In this document: in pieces, positions 2,679-8,002 of the stretch
Numbering within the stretch: position 1 is the first letter of the stretch
How the letters are laid out: the number at the start of each line of letters is the position of its first letter
DNA from: a virus
Lineage: Duplodnaviria > Heunggongvirae > Uroviricota > Caudoviricetes
Virus record (IMG/VR): IMGVR_UViG_2690316285_000016
DNA: 8,002 bases
Reading direction: 5' to 3' (one strand)
Position numbers and translations under genes: made by a program
Notes under the pieces: model-generated
Database searches by the model: none
Seen by the model: only the letters and a program-made list of their open reading frames with translations
Told to the model about the DNA's origin: nothing

Positions 2679-2871
2679 GAATCCTCCCGGCCGGGATAAT
2701 ATTGTGAGTAAAATAAGGAGCGGGCTGAAGTCCGGAAGTTACAGGACAATGGCAGAAGAGAGACGACAGCCCGCAATTCGAAAAAGACCGCGCAGTTGCG
2801 CAGAGTGATTACTATGGGGTATTATTCGCCAGCTGAAATATTACTTCACGTTTTATTGTTTATTCCTTGCC

Positions 2872-2900
2872 GCCCGCGTCTCCCAGCGCGGGCTTTTTTT
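2872..2900 (+). terminator. Plus-strand intrinsic terminator-like hairpin + T7 (duplicate at 4291-4319)
   Basis: GCCCGCG-tctcccag-CGCGGGC perfect 7-bp GC stem followed by TTTTTTT on the plus strand; identical copy in repeat 2. Confidence 0.5.
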
Positions 2901-2906
2901 GCCCAC

Positions 2907-2929
2907 AAGAAAACCCCTCCGGAGAGGGG
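2907..2929 (-). terminator. Minus-strand intrinsic terminator-like hairpin + U-tract (duplicate at 4326-4348)
   Basis: Minus RNA CCCCUC-UCCG-GAGGGG (6-bp GC stem, tetraloop) followed by UUUUCUU; lies 6 nt from the plus-strand terminator, forming a convergent pair. Confidence 0.5.
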
Positions 2930-3177
2930 CTAAAGCCGCGTATCTGTATCATCATGCACATGGTGCCGGGTGCCTCCCGGTGAGTTCAGCCCGGTGCCAC
3001 TAAACCCGCGTCATTCTCGTTTTGATAATCAGAGATTATACCGTCACCAGTCGCCCCTCCGCTCAGGGGGATTCACCATGCGAAATTTTTTTAACAAATG
3101 CCCAGTCTGACAGGCAACTGTCAACTTACTGAATTGTGAGCAACATAGCATTTAACGGGGAACCTGTTTTCTGCAGT

Positions 3178-3204
3178 AAAAAGGCCCACCGGAGCGGATG
3201 GGCC
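3178..3204 (-). terminator. Minus-strand hairpin + U5 (duplicate at 4597-4623)
   Basis: Minus RNA GGCCCA-(10-nt loop)-UGGGCC followed by UUUUUAC; forward A-run 3178-3182. Confidence 0.4.
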
Positions 3205-3395
3205 TGGAAGGATAGCGGTCATGTGATGCCGGTTTCCCGGTAACTCAGCACCGGTATCTGAGTCAACGTTTTCTCTACTGGGTCATTTCCGATACGCCCT
3301 GCCTGCTGACAGGCTTTCATCACATCTGAAAATATAGCACCCTGACTGATACTGTAGTACCTAAGGTTCCAGAAACTGTGATGTATCCGGCACAG

Positions 3396-3416
3396 AAAAG
3401 CCCCTCCGGAGAGGGC
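3396..3416 (-). terminator. Minus-strand hairpin + U4 (duplicate at 4815-4835); diverged homolog of the 2907-2929 element
   Basis: Minus RNA CCCUC-UCCG-GAGGG followed by GCUUUUCUG; weaker (5-bp stem). Confidence 0.35.
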
Positions 3417-3809
3417 TGGAGAGTGGCGCTATGTGCCATTGCATGATGCCGGGTGCCTCCCGGTGAATTCAGTACCAGCACCTGAATCCGCGATTATCCC
3501 ATATACCTACTCGCTGATTGCCCCTCCGCACAGGGGGATTCACCATGCCAGTTTCTTTTAACAAACTCCCCGCAAACCAGACAACAGTCAACCGCCTGAA
3601 TTGTGAAGTATTTAAAAATTTCTCCCGCTAACTGATACCCGGCTAACAGTCTGGCGTTTTCTTTTTCAGCAACGGGAAAGCAACAACCACCACACCCGCC
3701 ACCAGCACACCGTCAGCCAGCACTGACATTATCCGGCTGCTGCAATGCCATTCACAAAAACAGTAAGCAATCACTTTTTACCGTAACAGGTGATAATCCA
3801 GATATGTAT

Positions 3810-4136
3810 CTACCCCAGATGAGTAATCCGAAGTTCATCCATACCACAGGTCCTGGCTATTCTGTTGTACTCCTGAACAAGAGCAAATAATTCTGAATTA
3901 GCAACCATGAACTCATCGCAAACCCTCTGTATAGCATCACTATTCAGAATAATAACGTCTCTTCCCGAAAGACGATCAGGAGTACAGAACAAAACTGTCA
4001 AACGGCTGAAGGCCTTTGCTCGTGCTGCATTGACTATATCAATACGCTGCCTAAGGATGAAACACCCCGACGCCTCATCAATATTCACTCTACCCACACC
4101 ATATGAATGATAAATATTTAATGCTGAAAAAACCAT
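3810..4136 (-). CDS. Hypothetical protein; unrecognised cargo ORF in AT-rich insert (108 aa from first ATG at 4136; ORF-track 117 aa assumes TTG start at 4163)
   Basis: Only ORF over 100 codons in the 2.3 kb between tRNAs and nanS-p, and on the same strand as the late operon. No strong SD before either start; no motif I recognise. Local sequence is AT-rich (hand count 25 G+C in 90 nt over 4141-4230). Could be non-coding or a gene remnant. Confidence 0.35.
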   Translation of the reverse strand: MVFSALNIYHSYGVGRVNIDEASGCFILRQRIDIVNAARAKAFSRLTVLFCTPDRLSGRDVIILNSDAIQRVCDEFMVANSELFALVQEYNRIARTCGMDELRITHLG

Positions 4137-4230
4137 TAGACCGTATAACAAACACTCAATCAATACTTAACAGAACTTTTATTTTTGACAAACATAAAAT
4201 ATTTTCAACAATATCCTGAGCCAGGTATAT

Positions 4231-5036
4231 NTATGGGGTATTATTCGCCAGCTGAAATATTACTTCACGTTTTATTGTTTATTCCTTGCCGCCCGCGTCT
4301 CCCAGCGCGGGCTTTTTTTGCCCACAAGAAAACCCCTCCGGAGAGGGGCTAAAGCCGCGTATCTGTATCATCATGCACATGGTGCCGGGTGCCTCCCGGT
4401 GAGTTCAGCCCGGTGCCACTAAACCCGCGTCATTCTCGTTTTGATAATCAGAGATTATACCGTCACCAGTCGCCCCTCCGCTCAGGGGGATTCACCATGC
4501 GAAATTTTTTTAACAAATGCCCAGTCTGACAGGCAACTGTCAACTTACTGAATTGTGAGCAACATAGCATTTAACGGGGAACCTGTTTTCTGCAGTAAAA
4601 AGGCCCACCGGAGCGGATGGGCCTGGAAGGATAGCGGTCATGTGATGCCGGTTTCCCGGTAACTCAGCACCGGTATCTGAGTCAACGTTTTCTCTACTGG
4701 GTCATTTCCGATACGCCCTGCCTGCTGACAGGCTTTCATCACATCTGAAAATATAGCACCCTGACTGATACTGTAGTACCTAAGGTTCCAGAAACTGTGA
4801 TGTATCCGGCACAGAAAAGCCCCTCCGGAGAGGGCTGGAGAGTGGCGCTATGTGCCATTGCATGATGCCGGGTGCCTCCCGGTGAATTCAGTACCAGCAC
4901 CTGAATCCGCGATTATCCCATATACCTACTCGCTGATTGCCCCTCCGCACAGGGGGATTCACCATGCCAGTTTCTTTTAACAAACTCCCCGCAAAACAGA
5001 CAACTGTCAACCGTCTGAATTGTGAGACATTTAAAA
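4231..5036. repeat. Direct repeat copy 2 (~806 bp), abutting the tRNA-cluster terminator
   Basis: Same comparison as copy 1. Position 4231 is a single ambiguous n exactly at the copy boundary (copy 1 has c at 2812). Confidence 0.85.
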
Positions 5037-5072: not shown

Positions 5073-5149
5073 TGGCGCGTTGTACTGGATTCGAACCAGT
5101 GACCGATTGCTTAGAAGGCAATTGCTCTGTCCGGCTGAGCTAACAACGC
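5073..5149 (-). tRNA. tRNA-Arg (anticodon UCU), 77 nt with encoded CCA
   Basis: Minus-strand GCGTTGTTAGCTCAGCCGGACAGAGCAATTGCCTTCTAAGCAATCGGTCACTGGTTCGAATCCAGTACAACGCGCCA; cloverleaf built by hand: 7-bp acceptor stem, D stem GCTC/GAGC, anticodon loop CUUCUAA, T loop TTCGAAT. Third tRNA of an ileZ-argN-argO-like trio as found downstream of Q in Stx phages. Confidence 0.85.
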
Positions 5150-5162
5150 ATGATGCAGATAA

Positions 5163-5239
5163 TGGACCGCCATCGGGGACTTGAACCCCGCGCAGCCAGC
5201 TTCGAAGGCTGGCGCTCTTTCCTGATGAGCTAATGGCGG
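5163..5239 (-). tRNA. tRNA-Arg (anticodon UCG), 77 nt with encoded CCA
   Basis: Minus-strand CCGCCATTAGCTCATCAGGAAAGAGCGCCAGCCTTCGAAGCTGGCTGCGCGGGGTTCAAGTCCCCGATGGCGGTCCA; acceptor CCGCCAT/ATGGCGG, anticodon stem CCAGC/GCTGG with loop CUUCGAA, T stem CGGGG/CCCCG with TTCAAGT loop. Starts with C1-G72, which is unusual but pairs correctly. Confidence 0.8.
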
Positions 5240-5246
5240 TATGTGA

Positions 5247-5322
5247 TGGTGGCCCTTGCTGGATTTGAACCAGCGACCTGGCGATTATGAGTCGCTCGCT
5301 CTCACCACTGAGCTAAAGGGCC
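5247..5322 (-). tRNA. tRNA with CAU anticodon, most similar to tRNA-Ile2 (lysidine, ileX/ileZ-like); tRNA-Met cannot be excluded; 76 nt
   Basis: Minus-strand GGCCCTTTAGCTCAGTGGTGAGAGCGAGCGACTCATAATCGCCAGGTCGCTGGTTCAAATCCAGCAAGGGCCACCA; closely resembles E. coli ileX as I recall it; canonical cloverleaf with T loop TTCAAAT. Confidence 0.85.
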
Positions 5323-5362: not shown

Positions 5363-6421
5363 TCATCCGTTCTGGCTGACTAAATCCTGTACTTCCCGAA
5401 CCGTCTGCTCAAAACGTTCAGTCTCCAGCTCAACGCCAATTGCACGACGCCCGAGCGCCAGTGCCGCTTTCACTGTCGAACCCAACCCCATGAAAAAATC
5501 TGCAATCAGGTCACCCGGACGACTGCTAGCGCTGATTATCTGCTGCAGCATTTCTGCCGGTTTTTCGCACGGATGTTTCCCGGGATAGAACTGCACCGGT
5601 TTATGCGTCCACACATCGGTATACGGCACCTGCACCGTCACGCCAAAATACCGCCGCAGATGTTTATATTCACTCAGCAGCTCCGCATACTGCCGGTTCA
5701 GTGAGGTATACGTATCCACCAGCTGGTGGTGGAGCTTTTCCAGTTCACCACGCCGATGCTTCTCTTCTGCCACCCGGGCAAACAGCGCCTGTAATTTCAG
5801 ATAATCGCTTTCATTCGGCAACTGCCACTGACCGGCACTGAACCAGTGCGACACCATGTTTTTCTTTCCTGTGGCATCTGCAATCTGTTTTGCCGTTATC
5901 CCCAGGGCAGCTCGCGCATCACGAAAGTAAGAAATCAGCGGGGCCATCACATGCTGTTTCAGTGCACTGCCCTTCGCCGCATACCCGGCATCTTTCGGAC
6001 GATACGGCCCCTGATAATGTTCCGCGAACAGAATGCGCTCTGTGGCGGGGAAATACGCCCGCAGGCTTTCCTTGTTGCATCCGTTCCAGCGTCCGGACGG
6101 CTTCGCCCAGATAATATGGTTCAGCACACTGAAGCGTTCACGCATCATGATTTCGATATCAGATGCCAGGCGATGACCACAGAACAGGTAAAGACTTCCG
6201 GCAGGTTTCAGCACCCGCCAGAACTGCGCCAGACACTGGTCCAGCCACTTCAGGTAATCATCGTCGCCCTTCCACTGGTTATCCCAGCCCTCAGGCTTCA
6301 CTTTAAAGTACGGCGGGTCCGTGACTATCAGGTCAACAGAATTTTCGGGTAACGACCGGATAAATTCCAGGCAGTCGGCGTTGATTAACTCACAACTGGA
6401 TATTTTTACAGTATTAAGCAT
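5363..6421 (-). CDS. Orphan DNA methyltransferase, beta-class N6-adenine/N4-cytosine (N6_N4_Mtase fold), 352 aa
   Basis: Catalytic motif IV DPPY near the N-terminus (LIVTDPPYF) and SAM-binding motif I near the C-terminus (DFFMGLGST): the permuted order typical of beta-class amino-MTases. No restriction endonuclease partner in the window. ATG 6421..6419 overlaps the upstream gene's TAA (6416..6414): ATGCTTAA. Confidence 0.85.
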   Translation of the reverse strand: MLNTVKISSCELINADCLEFIRSLPENSVDLIVTDPPYFKVKPEGWDNQWKGDDDYLKWLDQCLAQFWRVLKPAGSLYLFCGHRLASDIEIMMRERFSVLNHIIWAKPSGRWNGCNKESLRAYFPATERILFAEHYQGPYRPKDAGYAAKGSALKQHVMAPLISYFRDARAALGITAKQIADATGKKNMVSHWFSAGQWQLPNESDYLKLQALFARVAEEKHRRGELEKLHHQLVDTYTSLNRQYAELLSEYKHLRRYFGVTVQVPYTDVWTHKPVQFYPGKHPCEKPAEMLQQIISASSRPGDLIADFFMGLGSTVKAALALGRRAIGVELETERFEQTVREVQDLVSQNG

Positions 6422-6815
6422 GGATCATTAAGCCTGTCTCTGATAGGCTCATTCTGCTTTTGCGCAAAGCAGTGGGCCTGAGGTTTGCTTGTGAACCCAA
6501 CGCATGAGNNNNNNNNNNNNNNNNNNNNNNNNNNNNNNNNNNNNNNNNNNNNNNNNNNNNNNNNNNNNNNNNNNNNNNNNNNNNNNNNNNNNNNNNNNNN
6601 NNNNNNNNNNNNNNNNNNNNNNNNNNNNNNNNNNNNNNNNNNNNNNNNNNNNNNNNNNNNNNNNNNNNNNNNNNNNNNNNNNNNNNNNNNNNNNNNNNNN
6701 NNNNNNNNNNNNNNNNNNNNNNNNNNNNNNNNNNNNNNNNNNNNNNNNNNNNNNNNNNNNNNNNNNNNNNNNNNNNNNNNCTGGCGGTTTCTGTCATATC
6801 CTGCTGTTTTAGCAT
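6414..6815 (-). CDS. Hypothetical protein upstream of and overlapping the methylase; interior N-masked (only MLKQQDMTETA... and ...HALGSQANLRPTALRKSRMSLSETGLMIHA visible)
   Basis: Candidate start ATG 6815..6813 preceded by AAGGAAAAG SD-like sequence; C-terminal fragment 6508..6417 ends in a TAA that overlaps the methylase start. Both visible ends are in the same frame only if the N-run length (272) is exact, which cannot be verified. Confidence 0.3.
   Translation of the reverse strand: MLKQQDMTETAXXXXXXXXXXXXXXXXXXXXXXXXXXXXXXXXXXXXXXXXXXXXXXXXXXXXXXXXXXXXXXXXXXXXXXXXXXXXXXXXXXXXXXXXXXXXHALGSQANLRPTALRKSRMSLSETGLMIHA
6509..6780. other. Run of 272 N (masked or unresolved sequence)
   Basis: Literal n characters in the sequence. 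Confidence 0.99.
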
Positions 6816-6847
6816 GTCTTTTCCTTTTCCGGTTAACGTGACACACC

Positions 6848-7585
6848 NNNNNNNNNNNNNNNNNNNNNNNNNNNNNNNNNNNNNNNNNNNNNNNNNNNNN
6901 NNNNNNNNNNNNNNNNNNNNNNNNNNNNNNNNNNNNNNNNNNNNNNNNNNNNNNNNNNNNNNNNNNNNNNNNNNNNNNNNNNNNNNNNNNNNNNNNNNNN
7001 NNNNNNNNNNNNNNNNNNNNNNNNNNNNNNNNNNNNNNNNNNNNNNNNNNNNNNNNNNNNNNNNNNNNNNNNNNNNNNNNNNNNNNNNNNNNNNNNNNNN
7101 NNNNNNNNNNNNNNNNNNNNNNNNNNNNNNNNNNNNNNNNNNNNNNNNNNNNNNNNNNNNNNNNNNNNNNNNNNNNNNNNNNNNNNNNNNNNNNNNNNNN
7201 NNNNNNNNNNNNNNNNNNNNNNNNNNNNNNNNNNNNNNNNNNNNNNNNNNNNNNNNNNNNNNNNNNNNNNNNNNNNNNNNNNNNNNNNNNNNNNNNNNNN
7301 NNNNNNNNNNNNNNNNNNNNNNNNNNNNNNNNNNNNNNNNNNNNNNNNNNNNNNNNNNNNNNNNNNNNNNNNNNNNNNNNNNNNNNNNNNNNNNNNNNNN
7401 NNNNNNNNNNNNNNNNNNNNNNNNNNNNNNNNNNNNNNNNNNNNNNNNNNNNNNNNNNNNNNNNNNNNNNNNNNNNNNNNNNNNNNNNNNNNNNNNNNNN
7501 NNNNNNNNNNNNNNNNNNNNNNNNNNNNNNNNNNNNNNNNNNNNNNNNNNNNNNNNNNNNNNNNNNNNNNNNNNNNNNNNNNNNN
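6848..7585. other. Run of 738 N (masked or unresolved sequence); likely hides the Q 3' end and the late promoter/qut region
   Basis: Literal n characters; every ORF-track protein containing X runs is an artefact of these blocks. Confidence 0.99.
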
Positions 7586-8002
7586 ACCTAGTTACCTTTT
7601 TTAACTGCCGCTCAGCCCATGCTTCTTCAATATCAAACCGGGTCACCAGCGCATCATAAAATTTCTTAACTGTTTTTTCCCATGACGCGCGTGTTATCTG
7701 GTTTGTCACCTCGCATATAGCATTAAATGCCTCCGTTGATGGTAGTCTTTCATAGCCACGACCACCACAACGCTGGCAGTCTCTGATAACAGGCATACCA
7801 CGTTTTACCGACTCTTCACGATGAATGGCGACACCACGCCCACGGCAATCCTTACAGGCGGTGGAAACCTCACCCTTTCCGCCACACTCCGGACAGGCAA
7901 CTTTTACCACCTCCCTGACTTTTTTCCATTCTTCCCAGTAAGACGGATACACACCTTTCGTACACTTTGCCCATACCGGCGGCTTACCATCCGGATACTG
8001 GA
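7586..8002 (-). CDS. Partial CDS (5' end beyond window, 3' end runs into N-mask): Q-family late antiterminator-like protein with three DnaJ-type CxxCxGxG zinc-finger motifs
   Basis: Minus-strand frame open to the window edge: ...QYPDGKPPVWAKCTKGVYPSYWEEWKKVREVVKVACPECGGKGEVSTACKDCRGRGVAIHREESVKRGMPVIRDCQRCGGRGYERLPSTEAFNAICEVTNQITRASWEKTVKKFYDALVTRFDIEEAWAERQLKKVTR. The C-terminal pattern (C.RC.G.GY.R.P ... W..TVK..YDALV ... VTR) matches my recollection of QuuD/QuuQ-type Q antiterminators. The ORF-track 'Met' at 7952 is GTG and is not a supported start. Confidence 0.5.

What the first reader, a model, noticed from the sequence alone, without database searches (positions are those of the whole stretch)
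3618..4230. AT-rich unique insert with an unrecognised cargo ORF (3810-4136/4163), bracketed by the direct repeats
The 613 bp between the repeat copies is visibly AT-richer than its flanks (hand count 25/90 G+C over 4141-4230) and carries a 108-117 codon minus-strand ORF (MVFSALNIYHSYGVGRVNIDEASGCFILRQRIDIVNAARAKAFSRLTVLFCTPDRLSGRDVIILNSDAIQRVCDEFMVANSELFALVQEYNRIARTCGMDELRITHLG) that I cannot assign to any family. It is co-oriented with the late operon, in the position where phages carry toxins, defence or anti-defence morons. Caveats: no strong SD, first start is TTG, and an overlapping 67-aa plus-strand ORF (3907-4110) exists, so it may be non-coding or a gene remnant.
Basis: partly seen in the sequence, partly recalled or inferred. 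Interest (0 to 1): 0.65.

Follow-up and report, generated by a model that had tools for sequence, protein, structure and literature searches.

The report
Small conserved prophage gene, function unknown
The AT-rich segment carries a real, selectively conserved 92-amino-acid gene of unknown function found in the accessory slot of E. coli lambda-like prophages (where Shiga toxin sits in other phages), but the flanking "direct repeats" are probably an assembly artefact.

Summary
A 613-bp segment (3618-4230, 41% G+C against about 51%) lies between two 805-bp repeat copies and carries a minus-strand ORF.

The ORF is a real gene, but shorter than proposed: 92 codons, 3810-4088, GTG start. Three E. 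coli lineages 28-33% diverged in DNA keep exactly 92 codons without indels (dN/dS about 0.25). Their amino-acid identity exceeds every one of 20,000 neutral simulations. The overlapping plus-strand ORF is not conserved.

The family is tiny (20 clusters among 1.84 billion proteins; E. coli, Shigella, Citrobacter). It has no Pfam domain and matches two PHROGs of unknown function. RefSeq leaves it unannotated in about 1,200 complete genomes. The model is an acidic alpha-helical hairpin with only generic fold matches.

It sits in the prophage late region between Q/methyltransferase/tRNAs and the lysis genes. Other lineages show a fuller module: YdeO/Psr-like AraC regulator, this gene, TerB, DUF3927. 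Here only the gene and a degraded DUF3927 remain.

The repeats carry STnc100 sRNAs. The right junction (an N at 4231) occurs in no other sequence searched, so the bracket is probably a scaffolding artefact.

A protein-binding regulatory role is my inference (about 25%).

The parts
3810..4088 (-). orf92: conserved 92-codon CDS plus stop, with a GTG start (VNIDEASGC...RITHLG). It encodes a 10.4-kDa, pI 5.7, Trp-free protein predicted to be an alpha-helical hairpin.
   Evidence: Three lineages keep 92 codons, a GTG start and no indels, with dN/dS 0.25-0.26. Amino-acid identity exceeds 20,000/20,000 neutral simulations. phrog_2873 matches at E 5.6e-58. The model has pLDDT 84 with helices 3-35 and 50-81.
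4089..4163 (-). In-frame upstream extension (ATG at 4136, TTG at 4163). Most likely a 5' leader rather than coding sequence. It contains a degenerate Shine-Dalgarno (TGGGTAGA before the GTG).
   Evidence: The extension is not conserved in the protein alignment. It has 6 variable sites in 75 nt against 10 in 276 nt for the core. The homologous position in L007 and L105 is a strong AGGAG-N4-GTG. DNA homology with L008 extends up to window 4165.
4166..4230 (.). The most AT-rich stretch, at the upstream edge of the cassette. In other genomes it abuts a 45-nt spacer and a tRNA-Arg.
   Evidence: 4141-4230 is 27.8% G+C. The natural neighbour is shown. The sigma-70-like site TTGAAA-16-AAAAAT at 4208-4181 on the minus strand is not above shuffle expectation.
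3643..3774 (-). DUF3927 (TciB-like) small membrane-protein gene, 43 aa. It is degraded at the N-terminus relative to the 54-aa form, with the first hydrophobic helix lost.
   Evidence: Pfam PF13064 E 1.7e-27 and phrog_1470. DNA homology starts only at 3742. PGAP annotates it as WP_000562553.1.
3775..3802 (-). 28-nt footprint of the TerB-stop/DUF3927-start junction, a scar left by deletion of a TerB gene.
   Evidence: 86% match to L005 2712-2739, which spans the TerB/DUF3927 gene boundary.
3907..4110 (+). Antisense 67-aa ORF. Not a gene.
   Evidence: No Pfam or PHROG match. The same antisense frame has 2 stops in L008, 6 in L010 and 7 in L098.
2813..3617 (-). Repeat copy A. It holds two STnc100/PasD-like prophage sRNA genes (2901-3110 and 3388-3577) and is naturally contiguous with the insert and with the SASA esterase gene.
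   Evidence: Rfam RF02076 at 161 and 122.5 bits. The region is contiguous at 99% in L038 and H34.
4232..5036 (-). Repeat copy B, with two more STnc100 copies (4320-4529 and 4807-4996). It is naturally contiguous with the tRNAs, but not with the insert.
   Evidence: Loci H38-H53 show tRNAs-repeat-esterase without the insert.
4231..4231 (.). Single N exactly at the insert/copy-B junction. Probably a scaffold join or an unresolved base.
   Evidence: The junction is absent from 5,426 complete E. coli genomes, from IMG/VR and from metagenome contigs.
5073..5322 (-). tRNA cluster: Met/Ile2 (CAT), Arg (TCG), Arg (TCT). It is the landmark upstream of the moron slot.
   Evidence: ARAGORN and Rfam. The same trio precedes stx2AB in phiSTEC1575-Stx2k.

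Best explanation
Shown. The window is the late region of an E. coli lambdoid prophage, read on the minus strand: Q, DNA methyltransferase, three tRNAs, STnc100 sRNAs, the AT-rich segment, STnc100 sRNAs, SASA/NanS-p esterase, holin. Positions 3810-4088 encode a genuine 92-aa protein (GTG start) under purifying selection. It belongs to a very small enterobacterial prophage family (phrog_2873 and phrog_4827) with no Pfam domain.

The gene is an accessory (moron-type) gene in the variable slot between the antiterminator/tRNAs and the lysis cassette. Fuller versions of the module elsewhere read: YdeO/Psr-like AraC regulator, orf92, TerB, DUF3927, holin. In this lineage the regulator is absent, TerB has been deleted leaving a 28-nt scar, and DUF3927 is 5'-degraded. 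orf92 stays intact in 83 of 84 sampled copies and is present at >=99% identity in about 1,170 complete genomes.

Inferred. No terminator separates it from the tRNAs in natural loci, so it is transcribed with the Q-dependent late transcript. It may also have a weak promoter of its own.

Mechanism I commit to (inference, about 25%). The product is an acidic, Trp-free antiparallel helical hairpin that acts by protein-protein contact, not by catalysis or DNA binding. It would be a small modulator (anti-activator or co-factor) of YdeO/Psr/GadX-type AraC regulators. In two lineages that regulator is encoded immediately upstream. In the orphan lineages the chromosomal paralogues would supply it.

Inferred, about 80%. 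The repeat-insert-repeat architecture in this window is not part of the biology. It is a scaffold join through multi-copy prophage sequence.
For: Real gene:
- Window, L007 and L008 copies are 67-72% identical in DNA. All have 92 codons, a GTG start and no indels. Third-position changes are in excess (39-43 against 18-24) and dN/dS is 0.25-0.26.
- None of 20,000 neutral simulations reaches the observed amino-acid identity. Only 5-7% of simulations stay free of stop codons.
- More distant members (32-40% identity, 91-95 aa) come from Citrobacter and metagenomes.
- L007 and L105 have AGGAG 4 nt before the GTG.
- Within this lineage, 83 of 84 copies are intact, with 5 synonymous and 5 nonsynonymous sites.

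Module and position:
- Q...MTase-AraC(HTH_18)-orf92-TerB-DUF3927-holin in L105 and L106. AraC-orf92 in L103, L104 and L008. orf95-TerB-DUF3927-holins in Citrobacter L010-L013.
- The two AraC partners are 64% identical, like their orf92 partners (64%), which fits joint descent.
- The AraC partner matches YdeO over its full length (E 1.7e-34) and also GadX and Rns. Psr and PatE regulators of this type are known in prophages (PMC10877973).
- The slot is variable. Many genomes have tRNAs-repeat-esterase with no insert, and stxAB occupies the slot in a Stx2k phage.

Fold and chemistry: helical hairpin with pLDDT 84. Seven of the nine aligned members have pI 4.8-5.7 and eight lack Trp.

Artefact:
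- An N sits at the junction.
- The junction is covered in 0 of 5,426 complete genomes, with 0 hits in IMG/VR and 0 in metagenome contigs.
- The natural 35-mer junction to the tRNA spacer is present in 59 fetched loci.
Against: Against the mechanism:
- The commonest lineage (this one) has no adjacent AraC gene. Neither do the Citrobacter lineage or the 51 complete genomes with the P0024-type allele, so the pairing is not obligatory.
- No interaction was tested.

Against expression in this lineage:
- The Shine-Dalgarno is degenerate.
- PGAP does not call the gene in about 1,200 RefSeq genomes.
- The promoter-like sites are no more frequent than in shuffles.
- Near-identity of the copies means within-lineage selection is only weakly testable.

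Against the artefact reading: tandem arrangements of late-region modules do exist in IMG/VR contigs (L033, L069), so a private real duplication cannot be excluded without reads.
Confidence: 0.6

Rival explanations
1. orf92 works with the downstream TerB and DUF3927 (tciA/tciB-like) proteins as a cytoplasmic component of a membrane-associated stress, exclusion or lysis-timing module. The copy here is an orphan left after that module decayed.
For: orf-TerB-DUF3927-holin order is seen in two distant lineages, E. coli L105/L106 and Citrobacter L010-L013. The window keeps a TerB scar and a DUF3927 remnant directly downstream.
Against: The L008/L103 lineage and L007 lack TerB and DUF3927 downstream. 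TerB-DUF3927 pairs occur without orf92, in JLK-2012 and SCU-125. orf92 remains intact where TerB is deleted. The tci names have no experimental basis that I could find.
Confidence: 0.15
2. orf92 is a GapR/DUF2312-like nucleoid-associated protein that binds AT-rich or overtwisted DNA.
For: The family profile's best PDB sequence matches are GapR/UPF0335 chains (E 0.054-0.25). The alignment covers the first helix and the turn. hhalign against a DUF2312 alignment gives P 4.9e-4 over 50 columns.
Confidence: 0.07
3. The ORF is non-coding or a decaying remnant in this lineage: the reading frame is open only because the copies are young.
For: Weak Shine-Dalgarno. PGAP omits it. The neighbours are degraded. 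The copies are >=98% identical, so there has been little time for decay.
Against: Between lineages the frame, length and start codon are conserved with dN/dS about 0.25. 83 of 84 copies are intact, and the synonymous:nonsynonymous ratio of 5:5 is above the roughly 1:3 neutral expectation. G+C is highest at the first codon position, a pattern I read as typical of coding sequence.
Confidence: 0.08
4. The repeat-insert-repeat structure is real: either a strain-specific 1,419-bp duplication or recombination between two prophage late regions, or cargo of a repeat-bounded mobile unit.
For: The sequence as given. IMG/VR contigs L033 and L069 show that late-region modules can lie in tandem. There is a short ATA microhomology at the junction.
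Against: An N lies exactly at the junction, and two long N runs (272 and 738 nt) lie elsewhere in the window. The junction is absent from every collection searched. The 'repeats' are 805-bp sRNA-bearing phage segments, and the scan reported no inverted-repeat pair flanking the insert. The other end of the insert is an ordinary, widely shared junction.
Confidence: 0.18

Closest known systems
PHROG families phrog_2873 and phrog_4827 (phage proteins of unknown function), deposited as 'hypothetical protein' (e.g. WP_001017777.1, AKK54112.1, UniRef A0A136WL65_ECOLX, Citrobacter WP_079938455.1)
   Same: Full-length profile match: E 2.8e-70 for the 108-aa form and 5.6e-58 for the 92-aa core. All nine aligned relatives hit phrog_2873 and eight hit phrog_4827. 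The exact sequence is in public databases.
   Different: Nothing differs. This is the family. It has no name, no Pfam model and no assigned function, and PGAP leaves this allele unannotated in most complete RefSeq genomes.
ANR family (AraC Negative Regulators: Aar, Rnr, Cnr), PMC4983702 and PMC4038620
   Same: A small all-helical protein that accompanies AraC/XylS-type regulators of horizontally acquired DNA in enteric bacteria. In two lineages orf92 lies directly downstream of such a regulator.
   Different: ANRs are under 10 kDa with three predicted helices and a signature of A10, E14, A22, W26, A29, W43 and R47 (PMC4983702). orf92 is 10.4 kDa, is modelled as two helices, and contains no tryptophan, as in seven of the eight other aligned members. 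It is a possible analogue, not a member.
Prophage-encoded YdeO-like AraC regulators PsrA, PsrB and PatE of EHEC (PMC10877973)
   Same: The gene upstream of orf92 in L008, L103 and L105 is a 241-242-aa AraC protein. It resembles YdeO over its whole length and sits in a lambdoid prophage.
   Different: That regulator is absent from this window. Its identity to PsrA, PsrB or PatE themselves was not tested.
TerB/DUF3927 (tciA/tciB-like) pair in the late regions of lambdoid phages, e.g. phage JLK-2012
   Same: Same slot after the tRNAs. The window's 3643-3774 is a DUF3927 member.
   Different: TerB is deleted here, and DUF3927 lacks its first hydrophobic helix. orf92 itself is unrelated to either protein.
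TraM-type helical-hairpin anti-activators (PDB 2q0o) and other generic antiparallel coiled-coil hairpins such as prefoldin beta and ROP
   Different: The similarity is not significant or specific (Foldseek E about 1). The highest scores include designed helical bundles. There is no sequence relationship.

Membership tests
phrog_2873 / phrog_4827 | Significant full-length match to the family HMM | tested here: met
   E 2.8e-70 over 1-108/108. The 92-aa core gives E 5.6e-58. phrog_4827 gives E 2.2e-5 for the window protein and 2.5e-16 for the best relative.
Protein-coding gene (against chance ORF) | Reading frame, length and start codon conserved across diverged homologues, with an excess of synonymous change | tested here: met
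   92 codons, GTG start, no indels, dN/dS 0.25-0.26. 0 of 20,000 neutral simulations reach the observed amino-acid identity.
Protein-coding gene (against chance ORF) | Recognisable ribosome-binding site at the conserved start | tested here: inconclusive
   AGGAG-N4-GTG in L007 and L105, and GGGAG/AAGGG in Citrobacter-type loci. The sites are degenerate in the window (TGGGTAGA-GTG) and in L008.
Phage moron | Present between conserved phage genes in some genomes and absent from the same place in close relatives | tested here: met
   H38-H53 have tRNAs-repeat-esterase in 1,380 bp with no insert. H34 and L038 carry the insert at that place.
Phage moron | Base composition different from neighbouring phage genes | tested here: met
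   41.4% G+C against 51-52%.
Phage moron | Own promoter and terminator allowing expression from the repressed prophage | tested here: inconclusive
   One 9/12 sigma-70-like site lies upstream on the minus strand, but the count in the region (3) is not above shuffles (2.0 +/- 1.4). No terminator-like site lies after the stop codon.
ANR (AraC Negative Regulator) family | Mass under 10 kDa with three conserved predicted alpha helices | tested here: not met
   10.4 kDa. The model has two helices, 3-35 and 50-81. The criterion is from PMC4983702.
ANR (AraC Negative Regulator) family | Signature residues A10, E14, A22, W26, A29, W43, R47 | tested here: not met
   No tryptophan in the window protein or in 7 of 8 relatives. 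No Pfam or NCBIfam hit.
ANR (AraC Negative Regulator) family | Direct binding to and down-regulation of an AraC/XylS partner | not testable with these tools
   Only genomic adjacency to a YdeO-like AraC gene in two lineages is available.
GapR / DUF2312 (PF10073) | Match to the family profile over the DNA-binding helices | tested here: inconclusive
   hmmsearch against PDB gives E 0.054 for the N-terminal half only. hhalign probability is 32%. No member hits PF10073 at E <= 10. The protein is acidic.
Repeat-bounded insertion or mobile cassette | Both junctions reproducible in independent sequences, with element-type ends (target-site duplication or inverted repeats) | tested here: not met
   The left junction is common. 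The right junction has an N and zero occurrences elsewhere. The scan reported no inverted-repeat pair flanking the insert.
DUF3927 (the neighbouring gene, 3643-3774) | Pfam PF13064 match above the gathering score | tested here: met
   95.6 bits against a cutoff of 25, covering profile positions 7-53 of 53.

The most novel reading that the evidence does not exclude
orf92 founds an unrecognised class of small acidic helical-hairpin partner proteins for prophage YdeO/Psr-type AraC regulators. It would be functionally analogous to ANR or TraM anti-activators but unrelated to them in sequence. The orphan copy, carried by roughly a fifth of complete E. coli genomes, would tune chromosomal GadE/YdeO acid-resistance (and, in EHEC, LEE) regulation from within a prophage late region.
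Probability: 0.15. Interest if true: 0.6.

Novelty: new member of a known kind. Interest (0 to 1): 0.33.

Why it matters
The gene sits in the prophage slot that carries Shiga toxin, nanS-p, AraC regulators and sRNAs in related phages. It is present at >=99% identity in about 1,170 of 5,426 complete E. coli genomes, including CFT073 and O104:H4 C227-11, yet RefSeq usually leaves it unannotated.

Showing that it is a selected gene closes an annotation gap and names a cheap experimental target. If it does modulate YdeO/Psr-type regulators, it would add a layer to prophage control of acid resistance and virulence. As it stands it is one more conserved hypothetical moron gene.

The finding is also a caution: the striking repeat bracket most likely comes from scaffolding multi-copy prophage DNA.

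Tried and rejected
- Pfam, NCBIfam and PADLOC scans of the window protein and two diverged alleles gave nothing significant. The RHIM hit (E 0.075) and the PRK05248 hit (E 0.026) were dismissed as noise.
- GapR/DUF2312 lead: I followed it with a DUF2312 alignment and hhalign. Probability was 32%, so it stays inconclusive, and the acidity of the protein makes it unlikely.
- ANR membership was rejected on the published signature.
- A search for an AraC remnant upstream of orf92 in the window, L007, L010, L098, L014, L099 and L102 found none.
- Antisense 67-aa ORF: rejected, because the frame is interrupted by stops in four of the five relatives examined.
- The window's right junction was searched in complete E. 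coli genomes, IMG/VR and metagenome contigs, with zero hits.
- The search for related loci with the nine-sequence alignment failed for lack of a conserved stretch. The three-sequence alignment found only E. coli and one probably mis-binned MAG in species-representative genomes.
- A literature search for DUF3927, TciB, WP_001017777 and phrog_2873 returned nothing relevant.
- P0034, next to Mu-like baseplate genes at E 1.6e-5, was treated as a doubtful family member.
Full report
**Context of the window**

All recognisable genes are on the minus strand, and they form the late region of an E. coli lambdoid prophage. In order on that strand:
- The 5' part of an antiterminator Q gene. Window 7586-8002 is 99% identical to the 5' part of the annotated Q gene of L001.
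- Two N runs, 6509-6780 and 6848-7585.
- An N6/N4 DNA methyltransferase at 5363-6421 (Pfam E 7.9e-42).
- Three tRNAs, Met/Ile2-CAT, Arg-TCG and Arg-TCT, at 5073-5322.
- The repeat-insert-repeat region.
- A 617-aa DUF1737/SASA/DUF6645 esterase (NanS-p type) at 825-2678.
- A P21-type holin at 459-752 and a DUF1327 protein at 140-454.

**Checking the observation**

The repeats are 2813-3617 and 4232-5036. They are identical for about 770 nt and differ only at the end next to the insert or the tRNAs. The 613 bp between them is 41.4% G+C against 51-52% in the flanks.

The ORFs are as described: minus strand 3810-4163 (TTG start) with an internal ATG at 4136, and plus strand 3907-4110.

A single N sits at 4231, precisely at the junction between the insert and copy B. 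A DUF3927 gene lies inside the insert at 3643-3774 on the minus strand. Each repeat copy also carries two STnc100 (RF02076) sRNA genes, scoring 161 and about 123 bits. A 2026 preprint relates this prophage sRNA to PasD (10.64898/2026.05.13.724894).

**Is the ORF a gene?**

Yes. The 613-bp segment is present at full length in 1,183 of 5,426 complete E. coli genomes. The ORF region is present at >=99% identity in 1,169 of them, with no feature annotated under it in any of the 27 near-identical records listed. Diverged copies also exist at 60-80% DNA identity.

I compared three lineages: the window, L007 (annotated WP_001017777.1) and L008. They are 67-72% identical in DNA and 59-64% identical in protein. 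All three have exactly 92 codons, start with GTG at the aligned VNID(E/D) position, and have no indels. They differ 39-43 times at third codon positions against 18-24 at first and second positions. Nei-Gojobori dN/dS is 0.25-0.26.

In 20,000 simulations per pair, with the same number of substitutions placed at random, no replicate reached the observed amino-acid identity (simulated mean 0.40-0.47, maximum 0.59). Only 5-7% of replicates stayed free of stop codons.

A profile search of 1.84 billion representative proteins found just 20 clusters. These include 91-95-aa relatives at 32-40% identity. One of them is a Citrobacter freundii-complex protein, WP_079938455.1.

Within the window's own lineage, 83 of 84 sampled copies are intact. 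Variable sites are 5 synonymous and 5 nonsynonymous in the core. The 75 nt upstream of the GTG are about twice as polymorphic as the core.

In L007 and L105 the GTG is preceded by AGGAG at 4 nt. In the window the homologous bases are the weaker TGGGTAGA.

So the gene is 3810-4088 (92 aa), not 108-117 aa. The antisense 67-aa ORF is not conserved: the same frame has 2 to 7 stops in four of the five relatives examined.

**What family is it?**

There is no Pfam, NCBIfam or PADLOC match for the window protein or for any of eight relatives. It does match phrog_2873 over its full length (E 2.8e-70) and phrog_4827 more weakly. Both PHROGs have unknown function. The exact 108-aa and 92-aa sequences are already deposited as 'hypothetical protein' from E. 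coli and Shigella.

The family profile's best PDB sequence matches are GapR/UPF0335 chains (E 0.054). A profile-profile comparison with a DUF2312 alignment gives only 32% probability, limited to the N-terminal half. The proteins are acidic (pI 4.8-5.7 for seven of nine members) and lack tryptophan. I regard the GapR link as unproven and unlikely.

**Genomic context across the family**

In every lambdoid locus found, the gene lies between Q/methyltransferase/tRNAs and the lysis genes.
- In L105 and L106 the order is MTase, AraC-type HTH_18 protein (242 aa), orf92, TerB, DUF3927, holin.
- In L103, L104 and L008 it is MTase, AraC-type protein (241 aa), orf92. That pair is intact in 79 of the 80 complete genomes that carry it; those listed include O91:H21, O113:H21 and O104:H21 strains.
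- In Citrobacter it is orf95, TerB, DUF3927, two holins, endolysin.

The two AraC proteins are 64% identical, matching the 64% identity of their orf92 partners. They resemble YdeO over their full length (E 1.7e-34) and also GadX and Rns. That places them with the prophage AraC regulators PsrA, PsrB and PatE (PMC10877973).

The pairing is not obligatory. The P0024-type allele is an orphan in 51 complete genomes. The window and Citrobacter lineages show no AraC remnant.

Other distant members lie next to a PapB-type fimbrial regulator, a GerE-type regulator, or a type IV pilus operon. These contexts were not examined further.

**History of the window's cassette**

Homology to L105 covers orf92 plus 36 nt upstream (75% identity), and then resumes only in the 3' part of DUF3927. 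A 28-nt stretch at 3775-3802 matches the TerB-stop/DUF3927-start boundary of L005.

The window's DUF3927 protein shares only its C-terminal 'SSRIMSVLADGVLVAGVVVVAFPLLKKK' with the 54-aa form and has lost the first hydrophobic helix.

The segment is therefore a reduced module. The AraC gene is absent, TerB is deleted, DUF3927 is eroded, and orf92 is intact.

**The repeat bracket**

The left junction (insert to repeat copy A to esterase) is ordinary. It is contiguous at 97-100% in all but three of the fetched loci.

The right junction is not ordinary. In nearly all of the 82 related loci, window position 4230 is preceded by a 45-nt spacer and a tRNA-Arg (…CTTATACTGAA|ATATACCTGG…). That exact 35-mer occurs in 59 of the fetched loci.

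The window instead reads …CCCCATA-N-ATATACC…. A 201-bp probe across this junction is never covered by more than its first 101 bases in the best-ranked records, and in none of 5,426 complete genomes does one place cover 80% of it. The 35-mer with the N allowed has no match in IMG/VR or in metagenome contigs.

Complete genomes show two natural arrangements: tRNAs-repeat-esterase in about 1,380 bp (H38-H53), and tRNAs-insert-repeat-esterase (H34, L038). The window looks like the two spliced together.

With the N at the splice, I think a scaffold join through multi-copy prophage sequence is the most likely explanation. A private rearrangement remains possible, because contigs L033 and L069 show late-region modules in tandem.

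**How it most likely works**

Shown:
- It is a selected 92-aa gene in the variable moron slot of the late operon. A Stx2k phage has stxAB directly after the same three tRNAs.

Inferred:
- It is transcribed with the Q-antiterminated late transcript. No terminator-like site was predicted upstream within the insert, and none is evident in the 45-nt spacer that precedes it in natural loci. Promoter-like matches in the AT-rich leader are not above chance.
- From the acidic helical-hairpin fold and the ancestral linkage to a YdeO-like activator, I commit, at about 25%, to a protein-binding modulator of AraC-type regulators. This is an analogue of ANR or TraM anti-activators, not a member. ANRs are under 10 kDa, have three helices and carry invariant tryptophans (PMC4983702). 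All three criteria fail here.

Rivals are a role with TerB/DUF3927 (15%), a GapR-like DNA binder (7%), and a decaying remnant in this lineage (8%).

**Verdict**

This is a real but ordinary conserved-hypothetical prophage gene. It is already present in databases without a name or function, and it is systematically missed by RefSeq annotation. The architecture that made it look like bracketed cargo is probably an artefact. Interest is modest. The one lead worth an experiment is the linkage to Psr/YdeO-type regulators.

Noticed in passing
window 2901-3110, 3388-3577, 4320-4529, 4807-4996 (all minus strand): Four STnc100 (RF02076) sRNA genes, two per repeat copy, at 122-161 bits. A 2026 preprint (10.64898/2026.05.13.724894) relates STnc100 to PasD prophage sRNAs. 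A TTGAC(T/A) -35-like box lies just upstream of the insert-proximal and tRNA-proximal copies, in the only part of the repeat where the two copies differ.
   Followed up: partly
window 4231, 6509-6780 and 6848-7585: A single N sits exactly at a repeat boundary, and two long N runs lie between the methyltransferase and Q genes. The listed ORFs 6414-7952 (512 aa), 6406-6846 and 6814-7659 run through Ns and are spurious. The MTase-to-Q distance is about 590 nt longer than in L006, so something unread may lie there.
   Followed up: partly
RefSeq complete genomes matching window 3800-4170, against L007 3977-4255: No feature lies under the match in any of the 27 near-identical records listed (1,169 complete genomes carry it at >=99%, including CFT073 and O104:H4 C227-11). 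The diverged allele with a strong Shine-Dalgarno is annotated (WP_001017777.1). This is an annotation inconsistency for one gene family.
   Followed up: yes
L003 2335-2460 and L006 3835-3960 (equivalent to window ~3434-3559, plus strand): PGAP annotates a partial 'hypothetical protein' pseudogene on the plus strand that lies inside the STnc100 sRNA gene. It is probably a mis-call over a non-coding RNA.
   Followed up: no
L008 4323-5048, L103 3969-4694, L105 4142-4870: 241-242-aa YdeO/GadX-like AraC regulators are encoded in the late operon directly upstream of orf92 homologues. This allele is in 80 complete genomes; those listed include O91:H21, O113:H21 and O104:H21 strains. Their relation to PsrA, PsrB and PatE was not tested.
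   Followed up: partly
L033 4246-8587 and L069 1699-7452 (IMG/VR contigs): Two late-region modules lie in tandem on one contig (tRNA-insert-partial repeat, then MTase-tRNAs-repeat-esterase; L069 has two copies of the insert). This is either real mosaic duplication or the same kind of assembly problem as in the window.
   Followed up: no
window 5073-5322: The tRNA trio CAT/TCG/TCT is the same set that precedes stx2AB in phage phiSTEC1575-Stx2k (L107 3741-3992). ARAGORN calls the first one Met, while RefSeq annotates its counterpart as Ile.
   Followed up: partly
window 3956-3974 (minus strand), inside orf92: A terminator-like hairpin (7-bp stem, then TTATTATT) lies within the coding sequence, at the conserved TPDRLSGRDVIILN turn. 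It is probably fortuitous.
   Followed up: no
L010 and L098, about 50-60 nt upstream of the orf95 start: A conserved strong intrinsic-terminator-like hairpin (CCATCTCCCGTGAGGTGG followed by a T run) precedes the Citrobacter-type homologues. This suggests an upstream transcript end, or a Q-readthrough site, just before the gene.
   Followed up: no
L017 (JAEWMQ010000075.1, labelled MAG: Bacillota bacterium): A 2.7-kb contig binned as Bacillota encodes a 62%-identical orf92 homologue. It is probably a mis-binned enterobacterial prophage fragment.
   Followed up: no
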